Shown here piece by piece: positions 32,248 to 46,809 of a stretch of DNA of 64,000 bases; position 1 is the first letter of the stretch, and every line of letters starts with the position of its first letter. Source of the stretch: Patescibacteria group bacterium (lineage in GTDB: Bacteria; Patescibacteriota; Minisyncoccia; UBA6257; 2-01-FULL-56-20); the NCBI GenBank assembly GCA_018971305.1, contig JAGXBC010000003.1:28325-92324 (forward strand). Reading direction: 5' to 3'. The notes under the pieces are model-generated. The model saw only the letters and a list, made by a program, of their open reading frames with translations. It ran no database searches and was not told the DNA's origin. The position numbers were made by a program, and so were the translations under genes.

Positions 32248-32844
32248 TTGACGCAGGGAAACGTTTTTAAGCACAAACTCGGCCGAAATGTTAAAATTCA
32301 AGAAATGATTTCCAGAGAAAATAATTTCGCGTTTATAGACAGTCAAAATCTTAATCTCGGCATTCGCGTTCAAGGTTGGGAGCTTGATTTCGCGCGGTTT
32401 CGTATATATCTCAAAGACAAATACAGTATTACCAAAGCGTTCCTTTGTATCGGTTATGTGAAGGGCAACGAAGGTCTATACAAATATCTTCAAGAGAGCG
32501 GGTACATTTGTGTTTTTAAGCCGACTCTTGAGTTACCCGACGGGGACGTAAAGGGCAACGTTGATGCTGAGCTTGTCTTATATACCATGATGCATATCAA
32601 TGATTTCGACCGCGCGCTCATTATTAGCGGCGATGGAGATTTTCACTGCCTTATTGAGCACCTCTTGGAACAGAAAAAACTGCTTGTGTTTATGGTGCCC
32701 AACAGAAAAAAATATTCAGGCCTATTGAAGCGGAAAGATTTTTTGCCACATACTCGATTCGTTGCCGATATCAGAAATATGGTCCAAAAAAAGAAAGACC
32801 CCGACGAGGACAAAACCTTGTCAGGGCACCCTTTCCGTTCGTGA
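32248..32844 (+). CDS. NYN-domain (LabA-like) putative ribonuclease
   Basis: AFIDSQNL...VDAELVLYTM...LIISGDGDF is the NYN/PIN-like signature. Confidence 0.7.
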   Translation: MTQGNVFKHKLGRNVKIQEMISRENNFAFIDSQNLNLGIRVQGWELDFARFRIYLKDKYSITKAFLCIGYVKGNEGLYKYLQESGYICVFKPTLELPDGDVKGNVDAELVLYTMMHINDFDRALIISGDGDFHCLIEHLLEQKKLLVFMVPNRKKYSGLLKRKDFLPHTRFVADIRNMVQKKKDPDEDKTLSGHPFRS

Positions 32845-32872
32845 TAACTATATTGTAGTAAAACCCCATAAC

Positions 32873-35800
32873 ATGTCAAGAGCTAAGCTGTGCATAGCAA
32901 AAATTCGCGGATGGGCTCGCCGGGCACCCGGCAGCAGACGTCGCGGAGAAATTTTAGCCTGCGTGACACTTGCTATTGTGGTTTCGGTGCTTGCGATATT
33001 GGTAACCGTAAAATTTTCCCCGGTTGTGAGAGCGCAAATTTCCCAAAGCGAACTGCCTACTCCGCAAAACTTAGTTGTCGCGAAAATCATAGACCCGGTA
33101 GGGAGATTAACGAACCTGCAGCCGCTTATAATTATCGCCAATAATCAGTTGCACGTGAGCGTTCCCGAGCCGAAATTCAGTTTCCGCCCGGGGAAATATA
33201 AACTGGAGCTTTGGATCTGGCAGGGCGGAAACATTTATTACACGGAAAATGATTTTAGCTGGGGAGTGCTCGCGGTAAATTTCAATAAATCAATCTATAA
33301 CCTCGGCGATAAGTCCAAAATCGGCCTCGCAGTTCTGGACGACCAAGGACATACTATTTGCAATGCTGATATGGATATGAATATCGTCTCGCCTTCCGGA
33401 AAAACATCGTATTTTTCAACGCAAGACAAAACCATTTCGCACAATCTCTCTTGCGGTCCGGGAAGCGTCACTAACGACCCGGACTATTCGGCCACAATTC
33501 TTGCCGGAGAAGTCGGAACTTATAATGTTTCTGTTACGGCGAGAACCGCTAACGGTACGAGGCAGATTTCCGATAAGTTTGAAGTGCAGAATCCGCCGAT
33601 GTTTGACGTGGAGCGCAACGCCCCGACAAGAATTTTCCCCCCGGCAACTTATAAGGTTTCCATTGCCGTAAAGGCGAACGATAATTTCCACGGAAATATC
33701 ACGGAAACTGTTCCTGGAACTTTTGATGTTACTGCTTCTAGTGCCGAGACGACGCTTGTCAAATCTTCTGGCTCTCCTACCTTGGATACAAAAATCATTT
33801 CTTGGCCTGTAAATTTAAAAAAAGGAGATTCTGTATCTTTAACCTATTCTTTCAAGGCTCCGGATGTGAGTCCGGAACTCTATAAATTGGGGCCGCTTCA
33901 GATCGGCAATTGGAGCGAAGCTCGGCAGTGGCAGGTGGCGGCGGACTCGGTGGCGAACACGGTTATTTTTATCACCTCGCTTGCTTCCACAACCTGGCAG
34001 GTTCCTAATGATTGGAACAATACTTCCAACACCATTGAGCTTATTGCCGGCGGCGGTGGTGGTGCTACGAACAGCGGGACTGGCGGCTCGTCAAACCGCG
34101 GAGGCGCCGCGGGCGGCGGTGGCGCTTATGCCATGATTACCAATTTTTCCACTTCTACTGGCAATCTCGTCAAAATTGGAGTTGGTACAGGGGGAGCCGC
34201 GCAAGCTACCGGCACTCTTACGTATTTCAACTGGAGCGGCGGTGGCACTACCTCTACTTGCAGTGGAACAACCATGCAATTATGCGCTATGGGCGGCGGC
34301 CGGGCTGTAACAGGTAACCCGGGCAGTTTCGGTACCGGAGGCGCGAGCTCAACAAGCGTTGGAACTGTCAAGTATGGCGGTGGTCCTGGTGGCGCTGATG
34401 CGTTGAGCAAGACAGCCGGAGCAGGCGGCGGCGGCGCCGGCGGTCCGAGCGGAGACGGCCAAGGCGGTACTAATACAACTATTGGAACTGGCGGAGCTGG
34501 AGATGCCGGTGTCGCTGCTGGCGGTACGGGAGGTTTAACGGGAACCAACCCGGGCGGTACCGGCGGTCCGGGTTCGGAGTGGACTTCCAATCCCGGTGGT
34601 GTGAGCGGCGGTTCCGGCGGCGGCGGCGGCGGATCCACGGGCAACTCAAGTACCGGCGGTACCGGAGGTAACTACGGCGGCGGCGGAGGAGGCGGTAGGA
34701 GCTCCGGCGGCGCCGGAGGCGTTGGCCAGCAAGGCATCATAGTCATCACCTATACGCCTTCAACTATTACTATGGCCGATGGCACGCAACCCGCTAACGT
34801 AACCGTTGGCCCTGGCGCGAATGCCACAACGAGCGCGGTTTTTACTTTAGTAACGAACAACAATACTGTTACGAGTTCCATTACAAGTATTGACGTGAAT
34901 ATCGCGACGACCACCGGCGTTTTCCAGGTGCAGATTGCCGATAACGCCGGGACGACTATTTACGGCTCAAGCACTAATCCGGGTTCCACCTCGCTTACGA
35001 TCAATACGACAAATATGGTTGTTTCCACAACAACTCTTACTTTTCGCACAATGATCAAACCGCTTGACGCGACTTCCATGCCCACGACTCCAGTGAGCGG
35101 CGCGGGCGCGGTGGGCGGTACTTACGTGGTTACCTCCACGCTCCCCGGAACTTTCACCGATAACAAAAGCTGGGATCATGCCGGCGCTAACACCACATCT
35201 TCCATTATCACCATAGACAACCTTTCGCCGGCGGACGTCACGAACGCTTCCGGCACTGTGGCCAGCAGCAGCGTGGCTTTTACCTGGAATAATCCAGGTG
35301 ATACGGATTTTGCGACGACGACCATAGTGCGGGCAACATCATCAATTTCCATAATTCCCACCGAAGGAACATATTATACTGTCGGACAAACCCTTAACGC
35401 CACAACCACTGTTGTCTGCGTTGTCGCCTCAAGCAGCGCTTCCAATTGCACCGATAGCGGCCTTACTGCCGGCACGACATATTACTATATGATTTTTACC
35501 GCGGACAATTACCTCAACTATTCTTCGGGGACCGTGCCGACGAACAATCCTTTTACGCCGAGCAATAACCAGCCGCCGACAGTTTCCGCCGTTTCTTTAA
35601 ACCACGGCAACGCCATAACTCTGACTCCGAACGCCACGACTTCTTTTGACCTGAACTGGAGCGTTTCCGACCCCGACGGATGCGCGAACATTAATACGAA
35701 CACCGCCACCTCCACGGCTTTCCGCCTCGGCGTCAAATCCACTTGCGCCGTTCCCGGCCCGACAACGAGCAGTTTGAGTTGCTATCTTTATCTGACGCGG

Positions 35801-36385
35801 ACGACATCCACCTGTTCCGGCACGACAATCAACACTACCGACACCGTGGGAATTTATTACTTCGCCGATTCCACGGGCAACAATTCTTCCACTTATCCAT
35901 CCGACCATTGGGAAGCGTTCGCTCTCGCAAGTGATGCCGCGGGCGCCACCTCCAGCGCGACCTCCACCAACGTGGACATCAATGTTCTTTCCGCGGTGAA
36001 CGTCACAACTTCCTCCATTGACTATTCAACGGTTACGGCTTCTTCCACGAGTGCCGAGCAGATTGCCACAACGACGAATGCCGGCAACTCCACAACCTCC
36101 ATTCAGCTTTACGCTTTGAGTACGCTCTCGTGTTCCAGCGGCGGCTGCAACGGCACTTCCATCACGACGAGCTCTCAGCACTACGCGAGCTCAACGGGAG
36201 CATCGTTTGATAGTACCGTCGCCCTGACCGATTCCCCGGTTACCCTAACCGGCATTAAACTGAAAACTCCCACAAGCACCGTAAATGTTTCCCAAGGCAC
36301 TTTCTGGTTCCTGAACGTTCCGGCCGGAACCGCAACAGGAACTTTCAGCGGCACGAACGTTTTCTCGCCGGCGTGGAGCCCATAA
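32873..36385 (+). CDS. giant (1,170 aa) membrane-anchored surface protein with central glycine-rich (ALK/Gly_rich-like) domain and C-terminal 4-Cys domain
   Basis: ATG at 32873 (MSRAKLC) followed by a TM segment. Residues about 400-620 are poly-G blocks alternating with beta strands (IELIAGGGGGA...GGAAGGGGAY...IIVITYTP). The last 320 aa are paralogous to gene 36920-37885. Confidence 0.7.
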   Translation: MSRAKLCIAKIRGWARRAPGSRRRGEILACVTLAIVVSVLAILVTVKFSPVVRAQISQSELPTPQNLVVAKIIDPVGRLTNLQPLIIIANNQLHVSVPEPKFSFRPGKYKLELWIWQGGNIYYTENDFSWGVLAVNFNKSIYNLGDKSKIGLAVLDDQGHTICNADMDMNIVSPSGKTSYFSTQDKTISHNLSCGPGSVTNDPDYSATILAGEVGTYNVSVTARTANGTRQISDKFEVQNPPMFDVERNAPTRIFPPATYKVSIAVKANDNFHGNITETVPGTFDVTASSAETTLVKSSGSPTLDTKIISWPVNLKKGDSVSLTYSFKAPDVSPELYKLGPLQIGNWSEARQWQVAADSVANTVIFITSLASTTWQVPNDWNNTSNTIELIAGGGGGATNSGTGGSSNRGGAAGGGGAYAMITNFSTSTGNLVKIGVGTGGAAQATGTLTYFNWSGGGTTSTCSGTTMQLCAMGGGRAVTGNPGSFGTGGASSTSVGTVKYGGGPGGADALSKTAGAGGGGAGGPSGDGQGGTNTTIGTGGAGDAGVAAGGTGGLTGTNPGGTGGPGSEWTSNPGGVSGGSGGGGGGSTGNSSTGGTGGNYGGGGGGGRSSGGAGGVGQQGIIVITYTPSTITMADGTQPANVTVGPGANATTSAVFTLVTNNNTVTSSITSIDVNIATTTGVFQVQIADNAGTTIYGSSTNPGSTSLTINTTNMVVSTTTLTFRTMIKPLDATSMPTTPVSGAGAVGGTYVVTSTLPGTFTDNKSWDHAGANTTSSIITIDNLSPADVTNASGTVASSSVAFTWNNPGDTDFATTTIVRATSSISIIPTEGTYYTVGQTLNATTTVVCVVASSSASNCTDSGLTAGTTYYYMIFTADNYLNYSSGTVPTNNPFTPSNNQPPTVSAVSLNHGNAITLTPNATTSFDLNWSVSDPDGCANINTNTATSTAFRLGVKSTCAVPGPTTSSLSCYLYLTRTTSTCSGTTINTTDTVGIYYFADSTGNNSSTYPSDHWEAFALASDAAGATSSATSTNVDINVLSAVNVTTSSIDYSTVTASSTSAEQIATTTNAGNSTTSIQLYALSTLSCSSGGCNGTSITTSSQHYASSTGASFDSTVALTDSPVTLTGIKLKTPTSTVNVSQGTFWFLNVPAGTATGTFSGTNVFSPAWSP

Positions 36386-36387
36386 AT

Positions 36388-36440
36388 GTAGAATTTTCAA
36401 TTATCAATTTTCAATTTACAATGAATTTTTAATTTTTAAC
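36388..36440. repeat. left inverted repeat of CAATTTTCAA-type units flanking the four-helix-bundle gene
   Basis: ttttcaattatcaattttcaatttacaatg. The reverse-complement units reappear at 36823-36855. Confidence 0.5.
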
Positions 36441-36445
36441 TATTA

Positions 36446-36796
36446 ATGATGAGCAGTAAATATAATTTAGAAGAACGAACCGCAAAATTCGGAGAAAACA
36501 CTATAGAGTTTTGTAAAAGTGTTAAGCAAGACACGATTAGCAGACCAATCATCAGCCAACTTATTAGATCGGCGACCAGCATCGGTGCAAATTATTGCGA
36601 AGCCAATAACGCCAGCTCAAAAAAGGACTTCAAAAATAAAATATTTATTTGTAAAAAAGAATGTCAAGAAACGAAGCATTGGTTGCGAATGATTACGCAA
36701 TGCGCGCCAGAACAAAAAGAAAAAATTGCAGCGCTATGGCAAGAATGCCAAGAATTAACAATGATTTTTCAGAAGATTATTTCCTCGTCTAGCTAA
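36446..36796 (+). CDS. four-helix-bundle protein (23S rRNA intervening-sequence protein family)
   Basis: ...SIGANYCEANNASSKKDFKNKIFICKKECQETKHWL is the family signature. Confidence 0.8.
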   Translation: MMSSKYNLEERTAKFGENTIEFCKSVKQDTISRPIISQLIRSATSIGANYCEANNASSKKDFKNKIFICKKECQETKHWLRMITQCAPEQKEKIAALWQECQELTMIFQKIISSSS

Positions 36797-36822
36797 ATGT
36801 GCGGCATTACTCCTAAATAACG

Positions 36823-36873
36823 GGTTGAAAATTGGAAATTGATCATTGAAAATTGCCCCGCCTGCGGCGGGGG
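36823..36873. repeat. right inverted repeat (TTGAAAATTG units) plus GC hairpin CCCCGCC-TGC-GGCGGGG
   Basis: Reverse complement of the left repeat units. Hairpin at 36856-36873 matches the one at 11842. Confidence 0.5.
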
Positions 36874-36919
36874 AGTTATCCACATCCTTTATAAATCATA
36901 ATCTGTTATAATAAATCTA

Positions 36920-37885
36920 ATGATGAGTCATAAGAACTCCGGTTTAGCCTATATAGGCGTAGTATTGCTCTCGGCCGTTTTGATTTTGGCCGTTTTTGCC
37001 GGTTTCAGTACTGCTTTCGGGGCAGCTTCAAGCACGGTTTCCACAACGGTAACCGTAGGAAACGCGACGCCGACGGTTACCTCGGTTTCTTTAAATAATG
37101 GTAGTGCGATAGTCCTGACTCCGAATGCCACCACGTCTTTTAATATCAATTATACGGTCTCCGACAATAACGGTTGCGCTGATATTAATACGAATAATAT
37201 GACCTCTACGGCTTTTAGGAATGGGGACTCTTCTAATTGTGCGAAACCCAGCCCGACGACCAGCAATACGAGCTGTTATCTCTTTATATCTTCAACGCGC
37301 ACCACAAGCACTTGCCAGGCCAGCGTAACTATCAACGTAACCGACACTGTGCAGATCTATTACTTCGCGGATTCCACCGGAAACAACTCGTCTACTTTCT
37401 CAACCGACCACTGGGAGGCCTATGCGACGGCTCACGATGCTTCTGATGCTAGCAGTAGTGCGACATCCACCTCCGTCGACATAAATGTTTTAACGGCAGT
37501 TAACGTGACGACTTCTTCAATCAACTACAGTTCCGCCGGCAACCTCTCGGCTTCTTCCACGAGCCCTCAACAGAACGCAACGACAACCAATGCCGGTAAT
37601 TCGACAACTTCTCTTCAGCTCTATGCCCTGCAGACGCTCGCAACGGGAACGATATCAATCGCCACCGGTTCTCAACATTATGCTACGACTACAGGACAAT
37701 CATTTGACGCCGGCAGCGTAGCCTTAACCGACACCCCGGTAACCGCTACGGGTTTCAAGCTCTTAACTCCAACAGCGACGAATAGCGTCGGCACATCTAC
37801 CTACTGGTTCCTGAACGTTCCGGCCGGAACGAATCAAGATACTTATACAGGCACTAACGTTTTCTCTCCGAAGTGGTCACAGTAG
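36920..37885 (+). CDS. membrane-anchored protein paralogous to the C-terminal domain of the giant protein
   Basis: Alignable end to end with residues about 890-1170 of 32873-36385: four conserved Cys and an identical 27-nt DNA stretch (ctggttcctgaacgttccggccggaac). Confidence 0.65.
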   Translation: MMSHKNSGLAYIGVVLLSAVLILAVFAGFSTAFGAASSTVSTTVTVGNATPTVTSVSLNNGSAIVLTPNATTSFNINYTVSDNNGCADINTNNMTSTAFRNGDSSNCAKPSPTTSNTSCYLFISSTRTTSTCQASVTINVTDTVQIYYFADSTGNNSSTFSTDHWEAYATAHDASDASSSATSTSVDINVLTAVNVTTSSINYSSAGNLSASSTSPQQNATTTNAGNSTTSLQLYALQTLATGTISIATGSQHYATTTGQSFDAGSVALTDTPVTATGFKLLTPTATNSVGTSTYWFLNVPAGTNQDTYTGTNVFSPKWSQ

Positions 37886-37998: not shown

Positions 37999-40537
37999 TT
38001 GGTTAGAATGAAAAACTTGTTGCTGATAGTGTTTGTTTTGGTGATAGCAATAATAGTATTAGTTCCCCAGTCCAAAGCTGCAGCAGTCCTAATTCCTAAT
38101 CAACCCAATATCGGTAGTCTGTTGGGATCTGGAACCGTTGTCAGTCAGCCCATCGGCGCAGGTTTTTTCGGATACAATCAGCGGTCTTGATTTTAATATA
38201 GTAAATCTAAATGGTCTTATAGCCTCTTGGTTCAAGGTTGATCTTTGTACATATCCATCCAGTTCACCTAGTAATGATTGTGGGCAAGAAAATCAGATTG
38301 GCATTACCGAAGGCCTTACGCCAGTAGGTGTTGGCATACGCCATGTTAGTTTTAATCAACCAATTACTATAAATCCTAATGATTTTGTAGTTTTGCGCTA
38401 TTGCGCTGCCTTTAATAATACTACTTATGATTGTGTGGGATCTGGCAACGGCACCTTTACTTTTTCGGGGATCACCAGCACCAATCCTGGTTGGTATCCA
38501 TGGCCGCAGTATTTATATGTGGTTTGGCAGCATGCGTCTCTATCTAATTTACAGCAATTTGAATCTGATGGAGTGACTGTTATTCCATCTGGGGGCGCTA
38601 TTCCAGAAAATACTGTGGTTCTGGCTGCAAATGTTGTGGGTGCGGCAGACAATACGGTACAACTACAGGTTGAAGTGGAACCAAATAATATTCCATTTTC
38701 TGGGATTCCAACCTTAAGCAGCTCCTTTGTTCTTTCTGGGGATATTACAACGATAACCGTGCCTAATATTCTAGATGGTCAATATCATTGGCAAGCTCGC
38801 GCAGTGGATTCTGAAGGAAATACGTCGCCCTGGAGTTCGGGCAGTAATTTTGTTATTGATACCATGCCTCCGACAATATCTTATAATCGGCCATCTCCAT
38901 ATTATATAATTAACACATCCGCCATATTTTCTTTTTATGCAAATGATAATGGAGGAACCGGAATTAATGATCTTTCAGCATTGCTTGATGGGAAATTATT
39001 CGACTTTGGTCCTACCGTCGGATCTGTTTTAAACCTTGATCTTTCTGTTGGTACGCACACTATTATTATCAAAGCGAAGGATTATGCGGGCAATATTACT
39101 ACGTCCGATACGCTTACATATACTGTGCCAGCAGCAATGGTTGCCAATGGATCTCAGCTAACCGATCAATCTTATATAGGTGGTACCATAGGAACTTCAA
39201 ATGGAATTGTTGCGCAACCCATCGGTGCAGGATTCTCAGATACCGTCAGCGGACTTGATTTCTATGTACCAAGCCTGAACAACCTTATAGCCTCTTGGTT
39301 CAAGGTTGATCTTTGTACATATCCATCCAGTTCACCTAGTAATGATTGTGGGCAAGAAAATCAGATCGGCATTACCGAAGGTCGTGTGTCCGTTGGCACT
39401 GGTATTCGACACGTCAGTTTTACTCAGCCGCTTAATATTTCACCTGACAACTTTGTTATTTTGAGGTACTGCGCTGCCTTCAATGATATAAATTACAGTT
39501 GCATACCCAGTGGCAATGGTAGTTTTACTTTCGGTGGTGTTACCAGCACCAATCCTGGTTGGTATCCATGGTCGCAGTATTTATATATCAAATGGCAGCA
39601 CACTACGATAAATGGTTTGGCACAATATGAAGCAGATGGCATAACACCGCTTGGAACTAGCGCAACAAACACAATAGTGTTGTCCGGAAATGTTGTCGGT
39701 TCTATTGATCCAGTTCAACTCCAAGTTGAAATAGAGCCAAGTGGTGCCGCTTTTATTGATCAACTCACGGCAAGTAGTTCGTTTGTTTCATCTGGGAGTA
39801 CTGCCACCATTACGATATCTGATGTGGCTGATGGGGATTATCATTGGCAAGCTCGTGCGATGGATTCGGGGGGAATTGCATCTCCTTGGTTGCCATTTAG
39901 TGCCGTGCCAACAAACACAGACTTTGTTATAGATACGACTCCACCTGTAATTGCACACACCGCTATCGAACCCCAGTACATTCTTAATGGCACTCCACTA
40001 CAGTTTCAATTTTCTGCAACGGATAATGGTGGTGTTGGACTTTCAAATCTTGTAGCCACACTAGACGGTGTTGAATTTTCGTCGGGAGATTTTATAAATT
40101 TTACTCAAGTCGGTGTACACACAATTATAATTACTGCAAAAGATGCTGTCGGAAATATTTCTACATCAACTAATACTTATGATGTGGCTTATAATTTCGG
40201 AGGATTTCTCCCTCCAATACAAACTGATGGTAGTGGCGTGTATAAGTTGAAGAGGTCTTTAGCTGTTAAATTCCAACTCACAGATGCCAATGGTCAATAT
40301 GTAGACAATGCGGTTGCACGTTTATTAGTGACAAAAGTAGAAGACGGTATTTTAGGAACTGTTCCGATAGAATTATCAACATCTACTACGGACATCGGCG
40401 GATTATTCAAATACGACCCAATTAGTAATCAGTATGTTTACAGGTTAGACACCGGATCTTTAACCACTGGGACATGGCAATTGACAGCAGTACTAGACGA
40501 TGGCACGAGTTACTCTATATTAATATCATTAAGGTAA
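37999..40537 (+). CDS. secreted tandem-repeat surface protein, interrupted by a +1 frameshift at a T6 tract (38163-38168)
   Basis: The N-terminal signal-peptide ORF (37999-38190) ends ...SQPIGAGFFGYNQRS*. Removing one T gives ...QPIGAGFSDTISGLDF, which continues into ORF 38138-40537 and matches the second internal repeat (IVAQPIGAGFSDTVSGLDF). Confidence 0.6.
38216..38313 (+). repeat. 98-nt core of a 1,068-bp intragenic tandem duplication (copy 1; copy 2 at 39284-39381, one mismatch)
   Basis: Near-identical DNA in both copies. The flanking protein repeats (about 356 aa each) are otherwise about 60% identical. Confidence 0.75.
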
Positions 40538-40558: not shown

Positions 40559-40584
40559 AAAAAGGGGACAGCCCCCTTTTTTTG
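40559..40584. terminator. bidirectional terminator AAAAAGGGG-ACAG-CCCC-TTTTTTT
   Basis: Seen in sequence. Followed by two TTGTATAAT extended -10 boxes at 40601-40609 and 40623-40631. Confidence 0.7.
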
Positions 40585-40645
40585 ATTTCCCCAGGAGATT
40601 TTGTATAATAATTACATCAATATTGTATAATATTAAGGATACTAA

Positions 40646-41563
40646 ATGGCCAAACATTCAATTATCTGGCCGGTTATTGCCGCTGTTTTTATTCTCGCCG
40701 CGGCGATTTTTTCGTTGCCGCAAGGAGCCATCGCGGCTTTCGGAGTTTCGCCTCCGTTTGTGAATTCCGACCACCTTGTTGCCGGAGCGCAATATATCCA
40801 AACGGTTTATTTGGTACAGGATCAGCCGGATCAGGATTTAAGAATTAAAGCAACGCTCAACGTACCTGATAAGATCAAACCCTGGATAAAAATAGACAAG
40901 GGCTTGGACTTTATTATTCCTAAAGGCGTTCGCCAATTTCCGATTCAGATAGAGGTTGATGTTCCAAAAAGCGAGATTCGCGGTCAGTATAGCGGCAACC
41001 TGGTCATAGTGAGCGAGCCTGCGCAATCGGGACAGGTAACCATCGCTTTGGGAGCCAATATCGCCATCAACCTTACGATCGGCACCGATATTTTTGAACA
41101 ATATTCCGTGCAGGCTATCAAGCCTTTGGACGTGGAGGAAGGTTGGAATCCCCGAGTTGATGTTAAATTCAAAAATGACGGTAATATTCCGGAAAGTTTT
41201 GATGGCGCAACCTTTGAATTGATAGATAAATTCGGCGGTACGCGCTTGGCTTATACTCAAAAAACCACGGGTTTTCCCGAGACGCCGCCGTTCAGCATTA
41301 AGGAATATGTTGTTGAGTTTCCCATGGAATTTCATCTTGGTCTTGGTCAATATTGGGCTGACGTAAATTTTTATAAGGGAGGTAAAATTATCGGCCACGA
41401 GAAAACGGTGTTCAATGTTCTACCTGCTGGCTCAATTTCCGGTCCAACGGCGCAAGTATTGAATTTCTTGAAAAACGCTTGGGTTTATTATTCCGCTATC
41501 GGTATTGTCCTTGCTCTAATGATATTTTTCTTCTTTTTCAAACGGAAGCGTCATCATAGATAA
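40646..41563 (+). CDS. secreted protein with C-terminal TM anchor and basic tail (hypothetical)
   Basis: N-terminal signal peptide. C-terminal ...IGIVLALMIFFFFFKRKRHHR. Confidence 0.55.
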   Translation: MAKHSIIWPVIAAVFILAAAIFSLPQGAIAAFGVSPPFVNSDHLVAGAQYIQTVYLVQDQPDQDLRIKATLNVPDKIKPWIKIDKGLDFIIPKGVRQFPIQIEVDVPKSEIRGQYSGNLVIVSEPAQSGQVTIALGANIAINLTIGTDIFEQYSVQAIKPLDVEEGWNPRVDVKFKNDGNIPESFDGATFELIDKFGGTRLAYTQKTTGFPETPPFSIKEYVVEFPMEFHLGLGQYWADVNFYKGGKIIGHEKTVFNVLPAGSISGPTAQVLNFLKNAWVYYSAIGIVLALMIFFFFFKRKRHHR

Positions 41564-41580
41564 AAAAGTTATCCAACGGG

Positions 41581-42537
41581 ATGAAATGGAAAAAAATATT
41601 TTCGGTCTCCATCTTGGGGTTAATCGCCGTCATTGTTTGGTATGGTAAATTTTCAATTGCTAGGTCTGCGAGCGTAAGCGTCCCCACGGAAGTCGTAACA
41701 ACTCCCGCGGTAGTCAGGTTAACCCAGGATTATTTCAGGTGGTATGAAAATATTGATGCTCTGACCCCCTCAAGCACATTGGCTGCGGAGAATACGTCTA
41801 CCAGCGTCCCCGATTCAGGAACCGTCTTGCGGTTAAGGATGAATATTATTGACGGCAACGTGGATTTGCCGACGGGTACGGAATTCAAACTCCAATACGC
41901 CAATTCCACCTCTGGCCCCTGGACAGACTTGTCTACCTCAACTTCCTGGATATTTTTTAACAATCCCTCAGTTGCCGACGGGCAGATTATCCTAACGACA
42001 GTTTTGAGCAATTCCAACACGGGTGAAAGTTATAACGAATCAAATCCGTCGGCTTCCACTCCGAATACTGTCGTGCAGGGCCAAAGAGGCGAGTGGGACT
42101 GGGTGATTGAAAATAATTCCGCGGATACGGCAAGCAACTGGTTTTTCCGGATGATATATTCTTCAAGCACGGTGCTTGACTCTTACAACAGGTATCCCAA
42201 ATTAACTGCCGTGCCCGTGGTCACTCCACCGCCGTCTTCGGGCGGAGGGGGCGGTTCAACCGGTGTTGGTGGGGGACAGACGACTCCTCCACCGCCTTAT
42301 GTTCCGCCGGGCAATCAAACGACAACGCCACCGCTGCCGATACCGCCGCCGCTTTTGCCTCCGCCCATACAGGCCGTGGATTTTAATGGTGATAACCGAG
42401 TGAATATCATTGATCTTTCTATTCTTCTTTATTATTACAACAAAACCGGGCCGCAAATAACGCGCTACGATTTAAACAGGGATTTGGCGGTAGATTTCCC
42501 GGACGTATCAATAATGATGTTTTATTGGACTAGCTAG
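41581..42537 (+). CDS. secreted protein with Gly/Pro-rich linker and C-terminal dockerin-like domain
   Basis: Two Ca-binding-loop repeats, DFNGDNRVNIIDLSILL and DLNRDLAVDFPDVSIMM, in the D-x-N-x-D-x-x-V-N/D-x-x-D pattern. Confidence 0.55.
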   Translation: MKWKKIFSVSILGLIAVIVWYGKFSIARSASVSVPTEVVTTPAVVRLTQDYFRWYENIDALTPSSTLAAENTSTSVPDSGTVLRLRMNIIDGNVDLPTGTEFKLQYANSTSGPWTDLSTSTSWIFFNNPSVADGQIILTTVLSNSNTGESYNESNPSASTPNTVVQGQRGEWDWVIENNSADTASNWFFRMIYSSSTVLDSYNRYPKLTAVPVVTPPPSSGGGGGSTGVGGGQTTPPPPYVPPGNQTTTPPLPIPPPLLPPPIQAVDFNGDNRVNIIDLSILLYYYNKTGPQITRYDLNRDLAVDFPDVSIMMFYWTS

Positions 42538-42573
42538 TAATAGAAAATAGAATCTAGAAAATAGAAAGTAGAA
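42538..42573. repeat. TAGAAAATAGAA repeat cluster (forward orientation)
   Basis: taatagaaaatagaatctagaaaatagaaagtagaagg immediately upstream of the four-helix-bundle gene. Confidence 0.6.
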
Positions 42574-42576
42574 GGA

Positions 42577-42924
42577 ATGAGCAAAACGAAATCATTTAAA
42601 GATCTAATTGTTTGGCAAAAAGCTCGCGATTTGGCGGTGATTGTCTACGAACTCACCGAAAAATTTCCCAGATCAGAACTGTACGGACTAACAAGCCAAA
42701 TGAGGAGAGCAGCTATTTCCATATCTTCCAACATCGCAGAAAGTTATCACCGTTTTCATAGTAAGGAGAAAAATCAGTTTTTAGCCATAGCTTTTGGTTC
42801 CGGCTCGGAACTAGAAAGCCAAATGGAAATCTCCAAGGTTTTATTCCCACACTTAAATTATAAAGGAGCAGGGGAGCTTCTTGGCGATGTGATGAAAATT
42901 CTAAACAATTTTTTATCCAAATAA
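42577..42924 (+). CDS. four-helix-bundle protein (23S rRNA intervening-sequence protein family)
   Basis: DLIVWQKARDLAVIVYELTEKFP..E.YGLTSQMRRAAISISSNIAE...FL.IAFGS..ELESQ is the family signature. Confidence 0.8.
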   Translation: MSKTKSFKDLIVWQKARDLAVIVYELTEKFPRSELYGLTSQMRRAAISISSNIAESYHRFHSKEKNQFLAIAFGSGSELESQMEISKVLFPHLNYKGAGELLGDVMKILNNFLSK

Positions 42925-42934
42925 ATATAAAACA

Positions 42935-43845
<911 letters not shown>

Positions 43846-43870
<25 letters not shown>

Positions 43871-43927
43871 AAAATAGAATCAAAAATTAATTCTACTTTC
43901 TATTTTCTAAATTCTACTTTCTAAATT
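43846..43927. repeat. palindromic TAGAAAATAGAA / TTCTACTTTCTA cluster spanning the stop codon of gene 42935
   Basis: Forward units 43846-43880, reverse units 43890-43927. Same organisation as the cluster at 8209-8296. Confidence 0.6.
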
Positions 43928-43930
43928 ATT

Positions 43931-44557
43931 ATGTTCGAATTACCAACGCTTCCATATGCTTATGACTCCCTGGAGCCTTATATTGATGCGCGTACGATGG
44001 AAATACACCACACGAAGCATCACCAGGCCTACATAAATAAATTGAACGAAGCCTTAGAAAAACATCCAGAGCTGGATAAGAAATCTTTGGAAGAATTATT
44101 GGGAAATCTTAATTCTGTGCCCGATGACATAAGGACGGCCGTGAGAAATCATGGCGGTGGGCACATCAACCACTCGTTATTCTGGAAGATTATGGGGCCC
44201 GGTGCCGGCGGTGAACCAAATGGTGCAATGGCCAAGGCCGTAGCGGATTCGTTCGGGGACTTTGTTAAATTTAAAGAAGAATTCGGAAAAGCCGCGGCCG
44301 GTATTTTCGGCAGCGGCTGGGCGTGGCTGGTTTTAAACGCAGAACACGGAACAGATAACAAGGAACAATTAAAGATAATTACGACCCCCAATCAGGACAA
44401 TCCCATATCGCAAGGACTCAGACCCCTTCTTGGCTTAGACGTTTGGGAACACGCTTATTATCTGAAATATCAGAATAAACGGCCGGATTATATTTCTGCC
44501 TGGTGGAACGTGGTCAACTGGAGTGAAGTTGAAAAGAATCTTACAGCATCTTCGTAG
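43931..44557 (+). CDS. sodA: Fe/Mn superoxide dismutase
   Basis: [22 protein letters not shown] metal-ligand motifs. Confidence 0.9.
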
Positions 44558-44646
44558 GCGAGCGATTATGGTTATGGGTGGAATACTGGATAATTATCTG
44601 ACTTTAGGCAACATAAATAGGTGAGTAATGCTATAATAATTTAGAT

Positions 44647-46809
44647 ATGGAAAGACCTCATAAAATAGGTGGATTTTGCCTATCATCTATGATAGCGGGC
44701 GGGTTTTTTCTGTTTGCCGTATTTTTCGCGGTAATTTCCCCGATTAAAGCTGAGGCCGCCGCCTCTCTTTATGTTTCTCCTCCGTCCGGCACATTTACGG
44801 TCGGCAGCACGTTTACGGTTTCTATTTACGTAAACAGCGGTGGCCAGTCTATTAATGCCGTAGAGGCGGATTTGAAATTTCCTGCGGATAGGTTGCAGGT
44901 TGTTTCGCCCACAACCGGGAAATCTCTTATTCAGGTTTGGGTAAGCCAGCCGACTTATTCAAATTTGGACGGTACGATGAAATTCCAGGGGACAATACCT
45001 AGTCCCGGAATAAATACGGATTCCGGTCTTATTTCCACTGTAACTTTCCGCGTGAAAAGCGTGGGTACAGCGTCGCTGCAAATTTTGGACAGCTCTCAAG
45101 TGCTTTTAAACGATGGCCTGGGCACTAATATATTGGGTCAGACTACGAGCGGTATTTATTATCTTGTTTTGCCGGCTCCTGCCGGACCGATAGTTACGTC
45201 GCGTACCAATCCGGATCAGTCCAAATGGTATAGCACTCATCAGGTGGTTTTTGAATGGAGTGCCCCGTCGGATATACAAGGTTATAGCTATATATTGGAT
45301 CAAGACCCGTCTGGAGAGCCGGATGATATTTCCGAAGGGACCAATACCAGGGTGGTTTATGACAAGCTTGCCGATGGCACTTATTATTTCCATATTAAGT
45401 CTTTACGGCAGGGCGCCTGGGGCGGAATTACCGATTATGTGGTGAATATAGATAACGATCCGCCGGCAAAATTTACAATAGATTTTTCTCCCGGAGACAC
45501 GACGTCTAATCACCGCCCGATAATTGACTTTACTACAACCGATAAAACTTCCGGACTGGATCATTATGAATTAAAAATTATTCCGCTGGATATGCCGCTC
45601 GCAGTGACAACCCAGAACGATACTCCATTTTTCATAGAAACCCAGCCGCCGTATTCCCAGCAATTGGCAGACGGAAGGTACGATGTTTATGTCCGGGCTT
45701 ACGATAAAGCAGGAAACTATTATCAAGCAGAGAGCAGGCTTACTATAACCAAGCCGATTTTTGAATTTTTGAGCCCGAGTGGTTTGAGTGTCAACGGTTT
45801 TACCTTGGGCTGGGCCTACACGGTTGTCTTGGGATTGCTATTTCTCGCGCTATTCGGATATTTCGGCTATAAGGCATGGACTTGGCATCGGTTAATTGAA
45901 GAATCTTTGGAGCACGGACCGCATAAGCATCCTGTGGTAGCCGAAAAACTTGAAGAGTTAAAGAAAAAACAAAAAGAATACGGATCGTCCGGAGGCACTA
46001 CAACAGCCCTTCTTACTCAGAATGATATCGACGGAAAAGAGCCGCCAGGCTCTATTGGCGGCACGGGTTTGATGATCTTGTTTGCCCTGGTAATATCTTT
46101 AGCGCTATTCGGACACGCGGTTAAGGCCCAGCAGAATGCGACTGGCAATGTTTCGGTTGAACCGCCCATAGTCACACTATTCCCCAAATCCATTTCCAAT
46201 GACGAGATCTTTTATATCGGCGGCAGAGCCGGGGCTCCTAACGCCAAGGTTTATATCTATCTGCAGAATGTGGACACAGGCAGCGCTTTGAATGAGATAG
46301 CGGTAACAGATGTTAGTGGCGCTTGGTTCTACTCTTTCCCGCAATTTCTGACTGCCGGGCGTTACATTGTCTGGACCCAGCTTAAGGTGAGCGATGCCTT
46401 GAGTTCACCGAGCCCGCAAATGAACTTGGAAGTCGCGCCGACCGCGATCCAATTCGGCGGCAACCGTTTCAGCTATCAGGATCTGTATTTTGTGTTGCTT
46501 CTTATATTCCTCGCGGCTTTCTGCGCATTGCTCGCATTCATTATTTACCACAGCTACCACTTCAGAATTAAAAATAGGCGATTGTCTTTGGCTATAGCGG
46601 CAGCGGAGGAATCTATCCGCCGCGGCTTCTCTGTTTTGCGCCGGGATATTGAAGAAGAGCTTAGCGTTATCCGCAAGGTCAAGCTTAATAAGGAGCTCTC
46701 CACCGAAGAAAAAATACGCGAAGAAAAATTAACTAAGGATTTTGAAGACGTAAATCGCTATGTTGGTAAGGAAATCTGGGAAGTGGATAAGGAGGAAAAG
46801 GATTTGTGA
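44647..46809 (+). CDS. large membrane protein with N-terminal cohesin-like domain
   Basis: SLYVSPPSGTFTVGSTFTVSIYVNSGGQSINAVEADLKFPADRLQV is cohesin-like. Several TM helices and a charged cytoplasmic tail follow. Confidence 0.5.
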   Translation: MERPHKIGGFCLSSMIAGGFFLFAVFFAVISPIKAEAAASLYVSPPSGTFTVGSTFTVSIYVNSGGQSINAVEADLKFPADRLQVVSPTTGKSLIQVWVSQPTYSNLDGTMKFQGTIPSPGINTDSGLISTVTFRVKSVGTASLQILDSSQVLLNDGLGTNILGQTTSGIYYLVLPAPAGPIVTSRTNPDQSKWYSTHQVVFEWSAPSDIQGYSYILDQDPSGEPDDISEGTNTRVVYDKLADGTYYFHIKSLRQGAWGGITDYVVNIDNDPPAKFTIDFSPGDTTSNHRPIIDFTTTDKTSGLDHYELKIIPLDMPLAVTTQNDTPFFIETQPPYSQQLADGRYDVYVRAYDKAGNYYQAESRLTITKPIFEFLSPSGLSVNGFTLGWAYTVVLGLLFLALFGYFGYKAWTWHRLIEESLEHGPHKHPVVAEKLEELKKKQKEYGSSGGTTTALLTQNDIDGKEPPGSIGGTGLMILFALVISLALFGHAVKAQQNATGNVSVEPPIVTLFPKSISNDEIFYIGGRAGAPNAKVYIYLQNVDTGSALNEIAVTDVSGAWFYSFPQFLTAGRYIVWTQLKVSDALSSPSPQMNLEVAPTAIQFGGNRFSYQDLYFVLLLIFLAAFCALLAFIIYHSYHFRIKNRRLSLAIAAAEESIRRGFSVLRRDIEEELSVIRKVKLNKELSTEEKIREEKLTKDFEDVNRYVGKEIWEVDKEEKDL

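What the first reader, a model, noticed from the sequence alone, without database searches (positions are those of the whole stretch)
40646..46809. Cohesin-dockerin-like surface assembly cluster
Gene 41581-42537 encodes a secreted protein ending in two calcium-binding-loop repeats (DFNGDNRVNIIDLSILL and DLNRDLAVDFPDVSIMM) that fit the dockerin D-x-N-x-D-x-x-V-N/D-x-x-D pattern. These follow a (G)5 / PPPP linker. Two nearby genes (42935-43870 and 44647-46809) begin with about 130-aa modules resembling cohesin beta-sandwiches (YRIYFSGPQAVTVGSEFSVKILIDS...LTLNLKALKEGNARLDF and SLYVSPPSGTFTVGSTFTVSIYVNSGG...TVTFRVKSVGTASLQILD). Both are anchored by TM helices. An additional secreted protein with a C-terminal TM anchor (40646-41563) heads the cluster, and sodA is embedded in it. 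Together this looks like a small cell-surface scaffold-and-dock system, which in an episymbiotic lineage could mediate host attachment.
Basis: inference. Interest (0 to 1): 0.62.

Follow-up and report, generated by a model that had tools for sequence, protein, structure and literature searches.

The report
Membrane-anchored cohesin–dockerin cassette in Paceibacteria
The window carries a real dockerin-tagged secreted protein followed by two membrane-anchored cohesin proteins; this three-gene set is conserved across a large group of ultra-small (CPR) bacteria and most likely pins swappable small proteins onto the cell surface, although binding itself has not been shown.

Summary
Gene 41581-42537 (g3) ends in a genuine dockerin: Pfam Dockerin_1 scores 28.3 bits against a cut-off of 22.9, and all Ca-ligand positions are present. 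Gene 44647-46809 (g7) starts with a Pfam-positive cohesin (36 bits against 24.1). Gene 42935-43870 (g5) misses Pfam, but its N-module is a paralog of g7's (hhalign 99.7%), and its AlphaFold model (pLDDT 92) matches solved cohesins best.

The window comes from a Patescibacteria (Paceibacteria-type) genome. Of 41 non-redundant related loci with this dockerin, 39 have a cohesin gene directly downstream and 37 have the full order dockerin → g5-type → g7-type. The cargo fused to the dockerin changes between lineages (at least four unrelated classes), yet the dockerin keeps its place. That is the strongest argument for a cognate pair.

No carbohydrate-active enzyme, multi-cohesin scaffoldin, SLH or sortase anchor is present, so this is not a cellulosome. 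sodA and a 23S-IVP gene are passengers. The conserved operon also extends upstream to giant surface proteins.

NCBI already names these proteins as cohesin or dockerin domain proteins. I found no paper describing the cassette. Binding and host attachment remain inferred.

Verdict: real feature, new variant of a known kind, moderate interest.

The parts
40559..40609 (+). Terminator-like hairpin (40559-40581) ending the preceding gene. A sigma-70-like promoter match follows at once (40582-40609; TTGATT-16-TATAAT). This is the putative start of the g2→g7 transcription unit.
   Evidence: No intergenic terminator-like site was found between g2 and g7. These are consensus matches only.
40646..41563 (+). 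g2: 305-aa exported protein with a signal peptide, beta-rich ectodomain, C-terminal TM helix (residues ~277-301) and a KRKRHHR tail. It is a conserved upstream neighbour of g3-type dockerin genes.
   Evidence: Orthologs lie directly upstream of g3 in about 20 loci. No Pfam or PDB family was found.
41581..42537 (+). g3: 318-aa secreted dockerin-tagged protein. It has a signal peptide, an Ig-like beta-sandwich cargo (residues ~47-209), a disordered Gly/Pro linker (~216-262) and a C-terminal dockerin.
   Evidence: Pfam Dockerin_1. AF2 model pLDDT 85. About 100 homologs in Patescibacteria.
42364..42534 (+). Dockerin module of g3 (residues 262-318). Ca loop 1 is at 42379-42414 (DFNGDNRVNIID) and Ca loop 2 at 42469-42504 (DLNRDLAVDFPD). 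Each loop is followed by a helix.
   Evidence: The family HMM scores 110.9 bits.
42577..42924 (+). g4: 23S rRNA intervening-sequence-type four-helix-bundle protein. It is a passenger gene in the g3-g5 gap and not part of the core system.
   Evidence: Pfam 23S_rRNA_IVP E 7e-31 and TIGR02436. It sits in the same slot in only 4 other loci.
42935..43870 (+). g5: 311-aa type-I membrane protein. It has a signal peptide, a cohesin beta-sandwich (residues ~38-170; DNA ~43046-43444), an FN3/Ig-like sandwich (residues 192-270), a TM helix (272-301) and a short basic tail.
   Evidence: NCBI nr names it a cohesin domain-containing protein.
43931..44557 (+). sodA (Fe/Mn superoxide dismutase): a passenger gene between g5 and g7.
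   Evidence: Pfam Sod_Fe_N and Sod_Fe_C. It is in this slot in only 5 related loci (L005, L006, L008, L036, L037).
44647..46809 (+). g7: 720-aa polytopic membrane protein. Parts in order:
- signal peptide
- cohesin (Pfam residues 51-169; DNA 44797-45153)
- Big_13 Ig-like stalk
- TM segment (residues 382-411)
- cytoplasmic loop
- TM segment (467-495)
- second ectodomain (~500-605)
- TM segment (608-639)
- charged, probably coiled-coil cytoplasmic tail
   Evidence: More than 420 full-length homologs were found, most with PF00963. P0104 is 100% identical and named a cohesin domain-containing protein.
32762..37885 (+). Conserved upstream surface-protein genes. g0a (32762-36385) is a ~1207-aa N-terminally anchored protein with a glycine-rich region. 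g0b (36920-37885) is 321 aa and paralogous to g0a's C-terminal 270 residues.
   Evidence: Orthologs lie upstream of g2-g3 in about 20 loci. The paralogy shows as DNA repeats D2, D5 and D6. Pfam gives only a weak Gly_rich_2 hit.

Best explanation
This is a non-cellulosomal cohesin–dockerin surface-display cassette that is conserved across Paceibacteria-type Patescibacteria.

**Proposed mechanism**
1. g2 through g7 are probably transcribed together.
2. g3, g5 and g7 are exported by their N-terminal signal peptides.
3. g5 stays in the membrane by a single C-terminal TM helix, and g7 by three TM segments. Each holds one N-terminal cohesin at the tip of an Ig-like stalk.
4. g3 would otherwise be a soluble secreted protein. 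Its C-terminal dockerin folds around two Ca2+ ions and plugs into a cohesin, so that its beta-sandwich cargo is held at the cell surface on a ~45-residue Gly/Pro tether.
5. The cargo slot is exchangeable between lineages, and many other small dockerin-tagged proteins of the same subtype exist. The two cohesin proteins therefore act as generic membrane sockets for a repertoire of small non-catalytic surface modules. These modules are plausibly adhesins or ligand binders.

**Shown versus inferred**
- Shown here: domain identities, membrane anchoring, conserved gene order, and cargo swapping.
- Inferred: the physical cohesin-dockerin contact, which cohesin is used, co-transcription, and any role in host attachment.
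For: - **Domain identity.**
  - Dockerin_1 and Cohesin pass the Pfam gathering scores.
  - The g5 module is homologous to g7's cohesin. Its AF2 model (pLDDT 92.4) matches solved cohesins best: 2vo8 at TM 0.82 and rmsd 2.8 Å, 2w1n (cohesin+FN3) at E 6e-10.
  - The dockerin family profile hits solved dockerins: 2y3n_B at 7e-5, R. bromii Amy12 at 1e-3, then CelS and the C. perfringens mu-toxin dockerin. EF-hand proteins come only at E > 0.15.
  - Ca-ligand positions are invariant or D/N in 44 modules.
- **Conserved gene order.** Of 41 non-redundant loci with the dockerin, 39 have a cohesin gene immediately downstream and 37 have g5-type followed by g7-type. Gaps are often under 20 bp.
- **Cargo swapping.** The cargo N-terminal to the dockerin differs between lineages while the dockerin keeps its position. 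Classes seen are the g3-type sandwich, a ~70-aa short domain, Cys-rich domains, and FN3 fusions.
- **Co-variation in number.** Two loci with an extra dockerin gene also have an extra cohesin gene (L015, L017).
- **Relative conservation.** The dockerin and the g7 cohesin are the most conserved parts, with 52% and 55% mean pairwise identity against 31% for the g5 modules.
- **Need for a tether.** g3 has no membrane anchor of its own.
- **Transcription signals.** A terminator and a promoter-like site lie just before g2, and no terminator lies inside the unit.
Against: - No binding was measured or modelled.
- The distance-matrix co-evolution test was not specific. Dockerin against g7 cohesin gave partial r 0.38, but dockerin against the g5 non-cohesin domain gave 0.37.
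- Many genomes are known to carry cohesin-like or dockerin-like modules with no demonstrated partner (Peer et al. 2009, cited in PMC3821032).
- Only one dockerin was found in the 64-kb window. A multi-client role therefore rests on database-wide counts, not on this genome.
- The g3 cargo has no significant structural match, so its function is unknown.
- The dockerin fold was judged from secondary structure and confidence only, not from a fold comparison.
Confidence: 0.66

Rival explanations
1. The modules are real cohesin-like and dockerin-like folds but do not bind each other. g3, g5 and g7 would then be independent envelope proteins that are co-transcribed only because they are all surface components. 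The dockerin would act as a Ca2+-stabilised terminal module or bind another target such as glycan, S-layer or host. The cohesins would act as generic Ig-like spacers or ligand binders.
For: - Orphan cohesin-like and dockerin-like modules are widespread (Peer et al. 2009, via PMC3821032).
- The co-evolution test was non-specific.
- No interaction data exist.
- The whole neighbourhood (g0a, g0b, g1, g2) consists of surface proteins, so linkage could reflect shared localisation.
Against: - The adjacency is far tighter than for the other surface genes. g0a, g0b and g2 are lost in about half the loci, but the dockerin/cohesin/cohesin order is kept in 37 of 41.
- The dockerin persists while its cargo is replaced. 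This is hard to explain unless the dockerin itself is what matters next to the cohesins.
- An extra dockerin comes with an extra cohesin in L015 and L017.
Confidence: 0.2
2. One asymmetric dockerin bridges both cohesins, forming an obligate g3–g5–g7 ternary complex. This would couple an extracellular binding module to the polytopic g7 and its cytoplasmic coiled-coil tail, acting as an adhesion or signalling device rather than a passive socket.
For: - The two dockerin repeats differ consistently at the usual recognition positions 10/11 across 44 modules: I/L/M-V/I in repeat 1 against F/L-P in repeat 2.
- Exactly two different cohesin proteins always accompany one dockerin.
- g7 is conserved over its full length, including its cytoplasmic parts.
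Against: - In known systems, asymmetric repeats usually mean a single binding mode rather than double occupancy (established cellulosome literature; my own knowledge).
- There is no structural or stoichiometric evidence here.
- The g5 cohesin is much less conserved than the dockerin (31% against 52%).
Confidence: 0.1
3. A cellulosome-like or amylosome-like polysaccharide-degrading complex.
For: Cohesin and dockerin are the hallmark cellulosome modules. Profile hits include cellulosomal and amylosomal dockerins.
Against: - The cluster has no glycoside hydrolase, CBM, multi-cohesin scaffoldin, or SLH or sortase anchor.
- Cargo domains on this dockerin subtype are small and non-catalytic: FN3, Big_6 and beta-sandwiches.
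Confidence: 0.02

Closest known systems
Clostridium perfringens non-cellulosomal cohesin–dockerin pairs (GH84/GH33 toxin complex; PDB 2w1n, 2vo8, 2jh2, 2ozn/2jnk)
   Same: - These are the best structural matches to the g5 model, including the cohesin+FN3 tandem of 2w1n.
- Its dockerin (2jnk/2ozn) is among the profile hits.
- There is a single cohesin per protein, and the function is unrelated to cellulose (PMC3821032).
   Different: - There, both partners are secreted glycoside hydrolases that pair up.
- Here, the cohesins sit on integral membrane proteins and the dockerin carries small non-catalytic domains.
- Sequence identity is only 12-19%.
Cellulosomal anchoring scaffoldins (e.g. R. flavefaciens ScaE/ScaB, C. 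thermocellum SdbA/OlpB types)
   Same: A cell-bound cohesin captures a dockerin-bearing partner and holds it at the surface. ScaB and ScaC cohesins are among the fold hits.
   Different: - Known anchors use SLH domains or sortase/LPXTG. Here, TM helices anchor the protein, and g7 is polytopic.
- Known clients are scaffoldins or enzymes, and several cohesins per protein are common.
- No X-module precedes this dockerin; only a Gly/Pro linker does.
Non-cellulosomal cohesin- and dockerin-like modules surveyed by Peer et al. 2009 (FEMS Microbiol Lett 291:1; cited in PMC3821032)
   Same: Cohesin and dockerin modules occur outside cellulolytic organisms, mostly on proteins of unknown function.
   Different: To my knowledge that survey predates CPR genomes and does not describe a fixed dockerin→cohesin→cohesin operon.
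TMEM132 family (cohesin + Ig domains + TM; PMC6030884)
   Same: The ectodomain architecture is a cohesin-like module followed by Ig-like domains and a TM anchor. It is interpreted there as an adhesion molecule.
   Different: It is eukaryotic with no dockerin partner known. This is an architectural analogy only, and homology was not tested here.
Essential dockerin-domain envelope protein SEML1_0315 of the Saccharibacterium Southlakia epibionticum (PMC10633639)
   Same: A dockerin-bearing envelope protein in an epibiotic CPR bacterium, flagged there as essential and speculated to target host glycans or adhesion.
   Different: It belongs to a different CPR class. That paper mentions no cohesin partner.

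Membership tests
Dockerin (type I, Pfam PF00404) | Score at or above the curated Pfam gathering threshold | tested here: met
   g3 residues 267-313 score 28.3 bits against a cut-off of 22.9, E 2e-6.
Dockerin (type I, Pfam PF00404) | Two tandem ~22-residue loop-helix (F-hand) repeats with D/N at Ca-ligand positions 1, 3, 5, 9 and 12 | tested here: met
   - Loop 1 is D-F-N-G-D-N-R-V-N-I-I-D and loop 2 is D-L-N-R-D-L-A-V-D-F-P-D.
- D1 and D12 are invariant in 44 modules, and positions 3, 5 and 9 are almost always D, N or S.
- AF2 places helices at 276-284 and 306-317 with pLDDT above 90.
Dockerin (type I, Pfam PF00404) | Closer to dockerins than to generic EF-hand proteins | tested here: met
   The family profile against PDB puts dockerins on top (7e-5 to 0.1). 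Calmodulin-like and troponin EF-hands appear only at E 0.15 or worse.
Dockerin (type I, Pfam PF00404) | Three-dimensional dockerin fold confirmed by structure comparison | tested here: inconclusive
Dockerin (type I, Pfam PF00404) | Ca2+-dependent binding to a cohesin | not testable with these tools
   Only indirect support is available: conserved adjacency to cohesin genes and cargo swapping.
Cohesin (Pfam PF00963) | Score at or above the Pfam gathering threshold | tested here: met
   - g7 scores 36 bits against 24.1, E 9.8e-9.
- g5 itself gets no hit, so the feature is not met for that single sequence.
- 13 of 39 g5-family members hit at E ≤ 0.1, the best at 7e-5.
Cohesin (Pfam PF00963) | ~140-residue flattened beta-sandwich (jelly-roll) fold like solved cohesins | tested here: met
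   - The g5 AF2 model has pLDDT 92.4.
- Its top PDB hits are cohesins only: 2vo8 at TMt 0.82 and rmsd 2.8 Å, plus 2jh2, 5m2s, 3l8q and 1qzn.
- g7 was not modelled. Its link is by homology to g5 (hhalign 99.7%) and by Pfam.
Cohesin (Pfam PF00963) | Binds a dockerin through the 8-3-6-5 sheet | not testable with these tools
   No multimer prediction or model coordinates were available.
Cellulosome / amylosome-type multi-enzyme complex | Dockerins borne by carbohydrate-active enzymes | tested here: not met
   - g3 has no catalytic domain.
- Cargo classes in related loci and in database representatives are FN3, Big_6, Cys-rich or small beta domains.
Cellulosome / amylosome-type multi-enzyme complex | Scaffoldin with multiple cohesins and a CBM | tested here: not met
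   There is one cohesin per protein and two in the whole window. No CBM was found.
Cellulosome / amylosome-type multi-enzyme complex | Cell anchoring via SLH repeats or sortase/LPXTG | tested here: not met
   - g5 and g7 end in or contain TM helices.
- The marginal LPXTG_anchor hit in g2 (16.0 against 15.9) covers only the TM and basic tail. No LPXTG motif is present.

The most novel reading that the evidence does not exclude
Paceibacteria carry a class-wide, dedicated three-component surface device. A modular, lineage-swappable dockerin-tagged binding domain is plugged, possibly through its two asymmetric repeats, into two different membrane cohesins. One of them (g7) is a polytopic protein with a conserved cytoplasmic coiled-coil tail. 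The cohesin-dockerin pair would then serve as a transmembrane adhesion or signalling coupler for episymbiont-host contact, rather than as a passive tether.
Probability: 0.12. Interest if true: 0.78.

Novelty: new variant of a known kind. Interest (0 to 1): 0.5.

Why it matters
**What is unusual**
- Cohesin-dockerin is one of the strongest known protein-protein plugs. It has been studied almost only in polysaccharide-degrading Firmicutes.
- Here it appears as a fixed three-gene operon across a very large, uncultivated group of ultra-small bacteria.
- The cohesins sit on integral membrane proteins, and the dockerin-tagged cargo is exchangeable and non-enzymatic.

**What it would provide if the pair binds**
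- A concrete, testable handle on how these reduced cells decorate their surface, which bears on how they may contact hosts.
- A clean recombinant assay: three small modules, with Ca2+/EDTA as the control.
- A set of orthogonal cohesin-dockerin pairs for protein engineering.

The finding is not a new principle, and automatic annotation already names the domains.

Tried and rejected
1. **Cellulosome reading.** Rejected: no CAZyme, CBM, SLH or sortase.
2. **Generic EF-hand instead of dockerin.** Rejected: the family profile ranks solved dockerins above EF-hand proteins.
3. **Sortase/LPXTG anchoring of g2.** Rejected: the NCBIfam hit is at the cut-off, covers only the TM and tail, and there is no LPXTG motif.
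4. **g4 as a DGR Avd pointing to a diversity-generating retroelement.** Rejected:
   - The bAvd/DivGenRetAVD scores are far below their cut-offs, whereas 23S_rRNA_IVP and TIGR02436 are strong.
   - No template/variable repeat pair was found; the repeats present are gene paralogy only.
5. **Mirror-tree / partial Mantel co-evolution of the dockerin with each cohesin.** The signal was positive but not specific, so it is not used as evidence.
6. **Fold assignment of the g3 cargo.** Only weak Ig-like matches (RhoGDI, integrin), with no hit below E 1e-3.
7. **Family assignment of g2 using 19 orthologs.** Nothing significant in PDB or Pfam.
9. **Single-sequence PDB searches with g5 and g7.** No significant hits. 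The g5 family profile had cohesins on top, but only at E 0.3-0.6.
10. **Literature searches for cohesin/dockerin in Parcubacteria, CPR or Patescibacteria.** No description of this cassette was found.

Full report
**1. The observation**

*g3 (41581-42537, 318 aa)*
- It has an N-terminal hydrophobic signal segment, a beta-rich domain and a Gly5/Pro-rich linker. Two 22-residue repeats follow at the extreme C-terminus.
- Pfam Dockerin_1 matches residues 267-313 at 28.3 bits against a gathering score of 22.9, E 2e-6.
- Both loops carry D/N at EF-hand positions 1, 3, 5, 9 and 12.

*g7 (44647-46809, 720 aa)*
- It matches Pfam Cohesin at 36 bits against a gathering score of 24.1, over residues 51-169.
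- It also matches Big_13 Ig-like repeats.

*g5 (42935-43870, 311 aa)*
- It has no Pfam cohesin hit of its own.
- Its N-terminal 135 residues are 36% identical to the g7 module (E 6e-17).
- A profile-profile comparison of the two families gives 99.7% probability, E 3.7e-26.
- 13 of 39 g5-family members hit Pfam Cohesin individually.

*Other points*
- sodA (43931-44557) is confirmed.
- A six-frame motif scan and a family HMM both find only one dockerin and two cohesin modules in the whole 64-kb window.

**2. Structure**

*g5 model*
- AlphaFold2 with a 39-sequence alignment gives pLDDT 92.4.
- The model has an N-terminal helix (signal or anchor), a beta-sandwich at 40-169, a short linker, a second sandwich at 192-270 and a TM helix at 272-310.
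- Foldseek against the PDB returns cohesins as all of the top-ranked specific hits.
  - The best are the non-cellulosomal C. perfringens cohesins: 2vo8 (TM-score 0.82 on the target, rmsd 2.8 Å), 2jh2, and the cohesin+FN3 tandem 2w1n (E 6e-10).
  - R. flavefaciens and A. cellulolyticus cohesins follow.

*g3 model*
- AlphaFold2 with 54 sequences gives pLDDT 85.
- The model has a beta-sandwich at 47-209, a low-confidence linker at 220-255 and a confident C-terminus (pLDDT above 90). The C-terminus has helices at 276-284 and 306-317, which is the loop-helix/loop-helix layout expected of a dockerin.
- The cargo sandwich has no significant PDB match; the best hits are RhoGDI and integrin Ig-like folds at E ≥ 1e-3.

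*Dockerin profile*
- A profile of the 58-residue dockerin module finds solved dockerins first: 2y3n_B at 7e-5, R. bromii Amy12 at 1.2e-3, 4fl4_A, CelS, and the C. perfringens mu-toxin dockerin 2jnk/2ozn.
- Generic EF-hand proteins appear only at E ≥ 0.15.

**3. Organism and distribution**

- g7 is 100% identical to an NCBI protein from a 'Patescibacteria group bacterium' (KGJ89_01820), and g5 to KGJ89_01810. Both are called 'cohesin domain-containing protein' in nr.
- g3 has about 100 homologs at 45-65% identity, and g7 has more than 420. These come from records titled Parcubacteria, Paceibacteria/Paceibacterota, Liptonbacteria, Jorgensenbacteria and others.
- One g3 homolog is named 'dockerin type I domain-containing protein'.

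**4. Gene-order conservation**

I fetched two distant loci by protein identity and 44 loci from species-representative genomes. I then scanned all ORFs with family HMMs.

- Of 41 non-redundant loci that contain this dockerin module, 39 have a cohesin gene immediately downstream.
- 37 have a g5-type cohesin followed by a g7-type cohesin on the same strand.
- Three of the four incomplete cases (L036, L038, L044) end at a contig edge.
- Gaps between the dockerin gene and the g5 ortholog are often under 20 bp.
- Two loci (L015, L017) have a second dockerin gene and also a third cohesin gene.
- The other genes are far less constant:
  - g0a, g0b and g2 accompany only the g3-type loci, roughly half.
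  - g1 has no ortholog in any locus.
  - sodA lies between g5 and g7 in 5 loci.
  - The IVP gene lies between g3 and g5 in 4 loci.

**5. Cargo swapping**

In about half the loci only the last ~60 residues of g3 match. Inspection of the dockerin-bearing ORFs shows a constant plan: signal peptide, cargo, Gly/Pro linker, dockerin. The cargo classes are unrelated:
- the g3-type sandwich (21, including the window);
- a ~70-residue short domain, giving proteins of about 160-190 aa (about 16);
- Cys-rich domains with a sandwich;
- short-domain+FN3 fusions.

A search of 1.84 billion cluster representatives with the dockerin profile finds 899 proteins at E ≤ 1e-10. Most carry a single dockerin at the extreme C-terminus of proteins about 170 aa or about 310 aa long. 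Sampled members carry FN3, Big_6 or no known domain. The only catalytic domains seen among the sampled proteins (Peptidase_C25 in P0409, Peptidase_S8 in P0274) are on large proteins with 5 to 9 dockerin repeats.

The dockerin stays next to the cohesins while its cargo is replaced. In my view this is the best available argument that the dockerin and the cohesins are functional partners.

**6. Anatomy and likely mechanism**

- A strong terminator-like hairpin (40559-40581) sits just upstream of g2, followed directly by a promoter-like match (40582-40609). No intergenic terminator-like site lies between g2 and g7. g2→g7 is therefore plausibly one transcript. This is inferred from consensus matches only.
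- g3 has no anchor other than its signal segment.
- g5 is a type-I membrane protein.
- g7 has a signal segment plus three hydrophobic segments (382-411, 467-495, 608-639) and a charged C-terminal tail.

The proposed sequence is as follows:
1. The proteins are exported by the Sec system.
2. The cohesins are displayed on Ig-like stalks.
3. The dockerin folds in a Ca2+-dependent manner and inserts into a cohesin.
4. The cargo is held on a flexible ~45-residue tether.

The dockerin's two repeats are consistently different at the usual recognition positions 10/11: I/L/M-V/I against F/L-P. In known systems this asymmetry points to a single binding mode. It also leaves open the more novel possibility that each face addresses a different cohesin.

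The dockerin and the g7 cohesin are the most conserved parts, at 52% and 55% mean pairwise identity. The g5 modules are at 31%. This hints that g7 is the primary socket. A partial-Mantel test was positive but not specific, and I do not rely on it.

**7. Comparison with known systems**

- This is not a cellulosome or an amylosome. There are no CAZymes, no CBM, no multi-cohesin scaffoldin, and no SLH or sortase anchor.
- It works most like a cell-anchoring cohesin capturing a dockerin-bearing client.
- Structurally it is closest to the C. perfringens non-cellulosomal cohesin-dockerin pairs (PMC3821032).
- The differences are integral-membrane cohesin carriers (one of them polytopic), one cohesin per protein, small non-catalytic swappable cargo, and a fixed three-gene operon in CPR bacteria.
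- Non-cellulosomal cohesin and dockerin modules have been known since Peer et al. 2009 (cited in PMC3821032).
- A dockerin-domain envelope protein was reported as essential in a cultivated Saccharibacterium (PMC10633639).
- Four full-text searches found no description of this cassette.

**8. Verdict**

Physical binding and any role in host attachment remain inferred. The domains are already auto-annotated. The conserved operon, the membrane-integral cohesins and the exchangeable cargo slot make this a new variant of a known kind. Interest is moderate, and the wet-lab test is simple.

Noticed in passing
window 37999-38190 and 38138-40537: g1 (799 aa; Big_13, OmpL47-type and PxKF domains) lacks a signal peptide.
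- The short ORF 37999-38190 in another frame encodes a signal peptide and the start of g1's internal repeat (…SQPIGAGF).
- Removing one T from the T6 run at about 38163-38168 joins the two ORFs.
- This is therefore a homopolymer frameshift: an assembly error, a pseudogene or phase variation.
- g1 is an internal tandem duplication with 1068-nt spacing and has no ortholog in any related locus.
   Followed up: partly
window 42577-42924; also L012, L038, L042, L046; proteins P0226, P0227, P0230, P0232, P0234, P0268: The short gap between the dockerin gene and the g5 ortholog is repeatedly occupied by a small selfish-looking gene.
- In the window and 4 loci it is a 23S-rRNA-IVP four-helix-bundle gene.
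- In others it is a PF13366 (PDDEXK_3) gene, which gene callers fused to the g5 homolog.
- This looks like a recurrent insertion hotspot.
   Followed up: partly
L001 5028-5459 (same contig as L022): In the complete 898-kb relative, the g2 ortholog is split by an IS200-type Y1_Tnp transposase gene on the opposite strand.
   Followed up: no
window 42544-42600 and 43843-43899: AT-rich TAGAAAA-type heptamer or 14-nt periodic repeats occur just upstream of g4 and again at the end of g5, upstream of sodA. They bracket the g4-g5 pair. They may be insertion scars or shared translation-initiation regions.
   Followed up: no
window 35825-36376 vs 37328-37876: The C-terminal ~270 residues of the 1207-aa g0a are paralogous to the whole ectodomain of g0b, at 70-77% DNA identity in blocks. 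g0a also has a Gly-rich stretch that causes the GC peak (0.567) at 34-36 kb.
   Followed up: partly
L001 1913-2479; L023, L025, L027, L043, L044: The g3 cargo sandwich also occurs without a dockerin.
- It appears as a module inside giant surface proteins and in other lineages.
- One record is titled Dehalococcoidia (L023, 51% identity), which may be a mis-binned contig.
   Followed up: no
L015 3011-3544 and 10897-12189; L017 likewise: Two loci carry a second, short-type dockerin protein upstream of the giant gene. They also carry an extra 430-aa g7-type cohesin protein between g3 and g5, so dockerin and cohesin numbers rise together.
   Followed up: partly
L030, L034, L035, L039, L044 (dockerin ORFs); L038, L041, P0414: Some dockerin cargos start with Cys-rich motifs. 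Examples are 'CGN…GEQCDG.DL….C' and 'CSDG.DNDGDGLIDYP.DP.C'. They resemble small disulfide-rich or Ca-binding repeats of unknown function.
   Followed up: no
window 44647-46809, residues ~467-720: The C-terminal third of g7 looks like a second, self-contained unit. It has an internal signal-peptide-like segment ending AVKA-QQ, a ~100-residue ectodomain, a TM segment and a charged coiled-coil-like tail. It is conserved over its full length in relatives, and its function is unknown.
   Followed up: no
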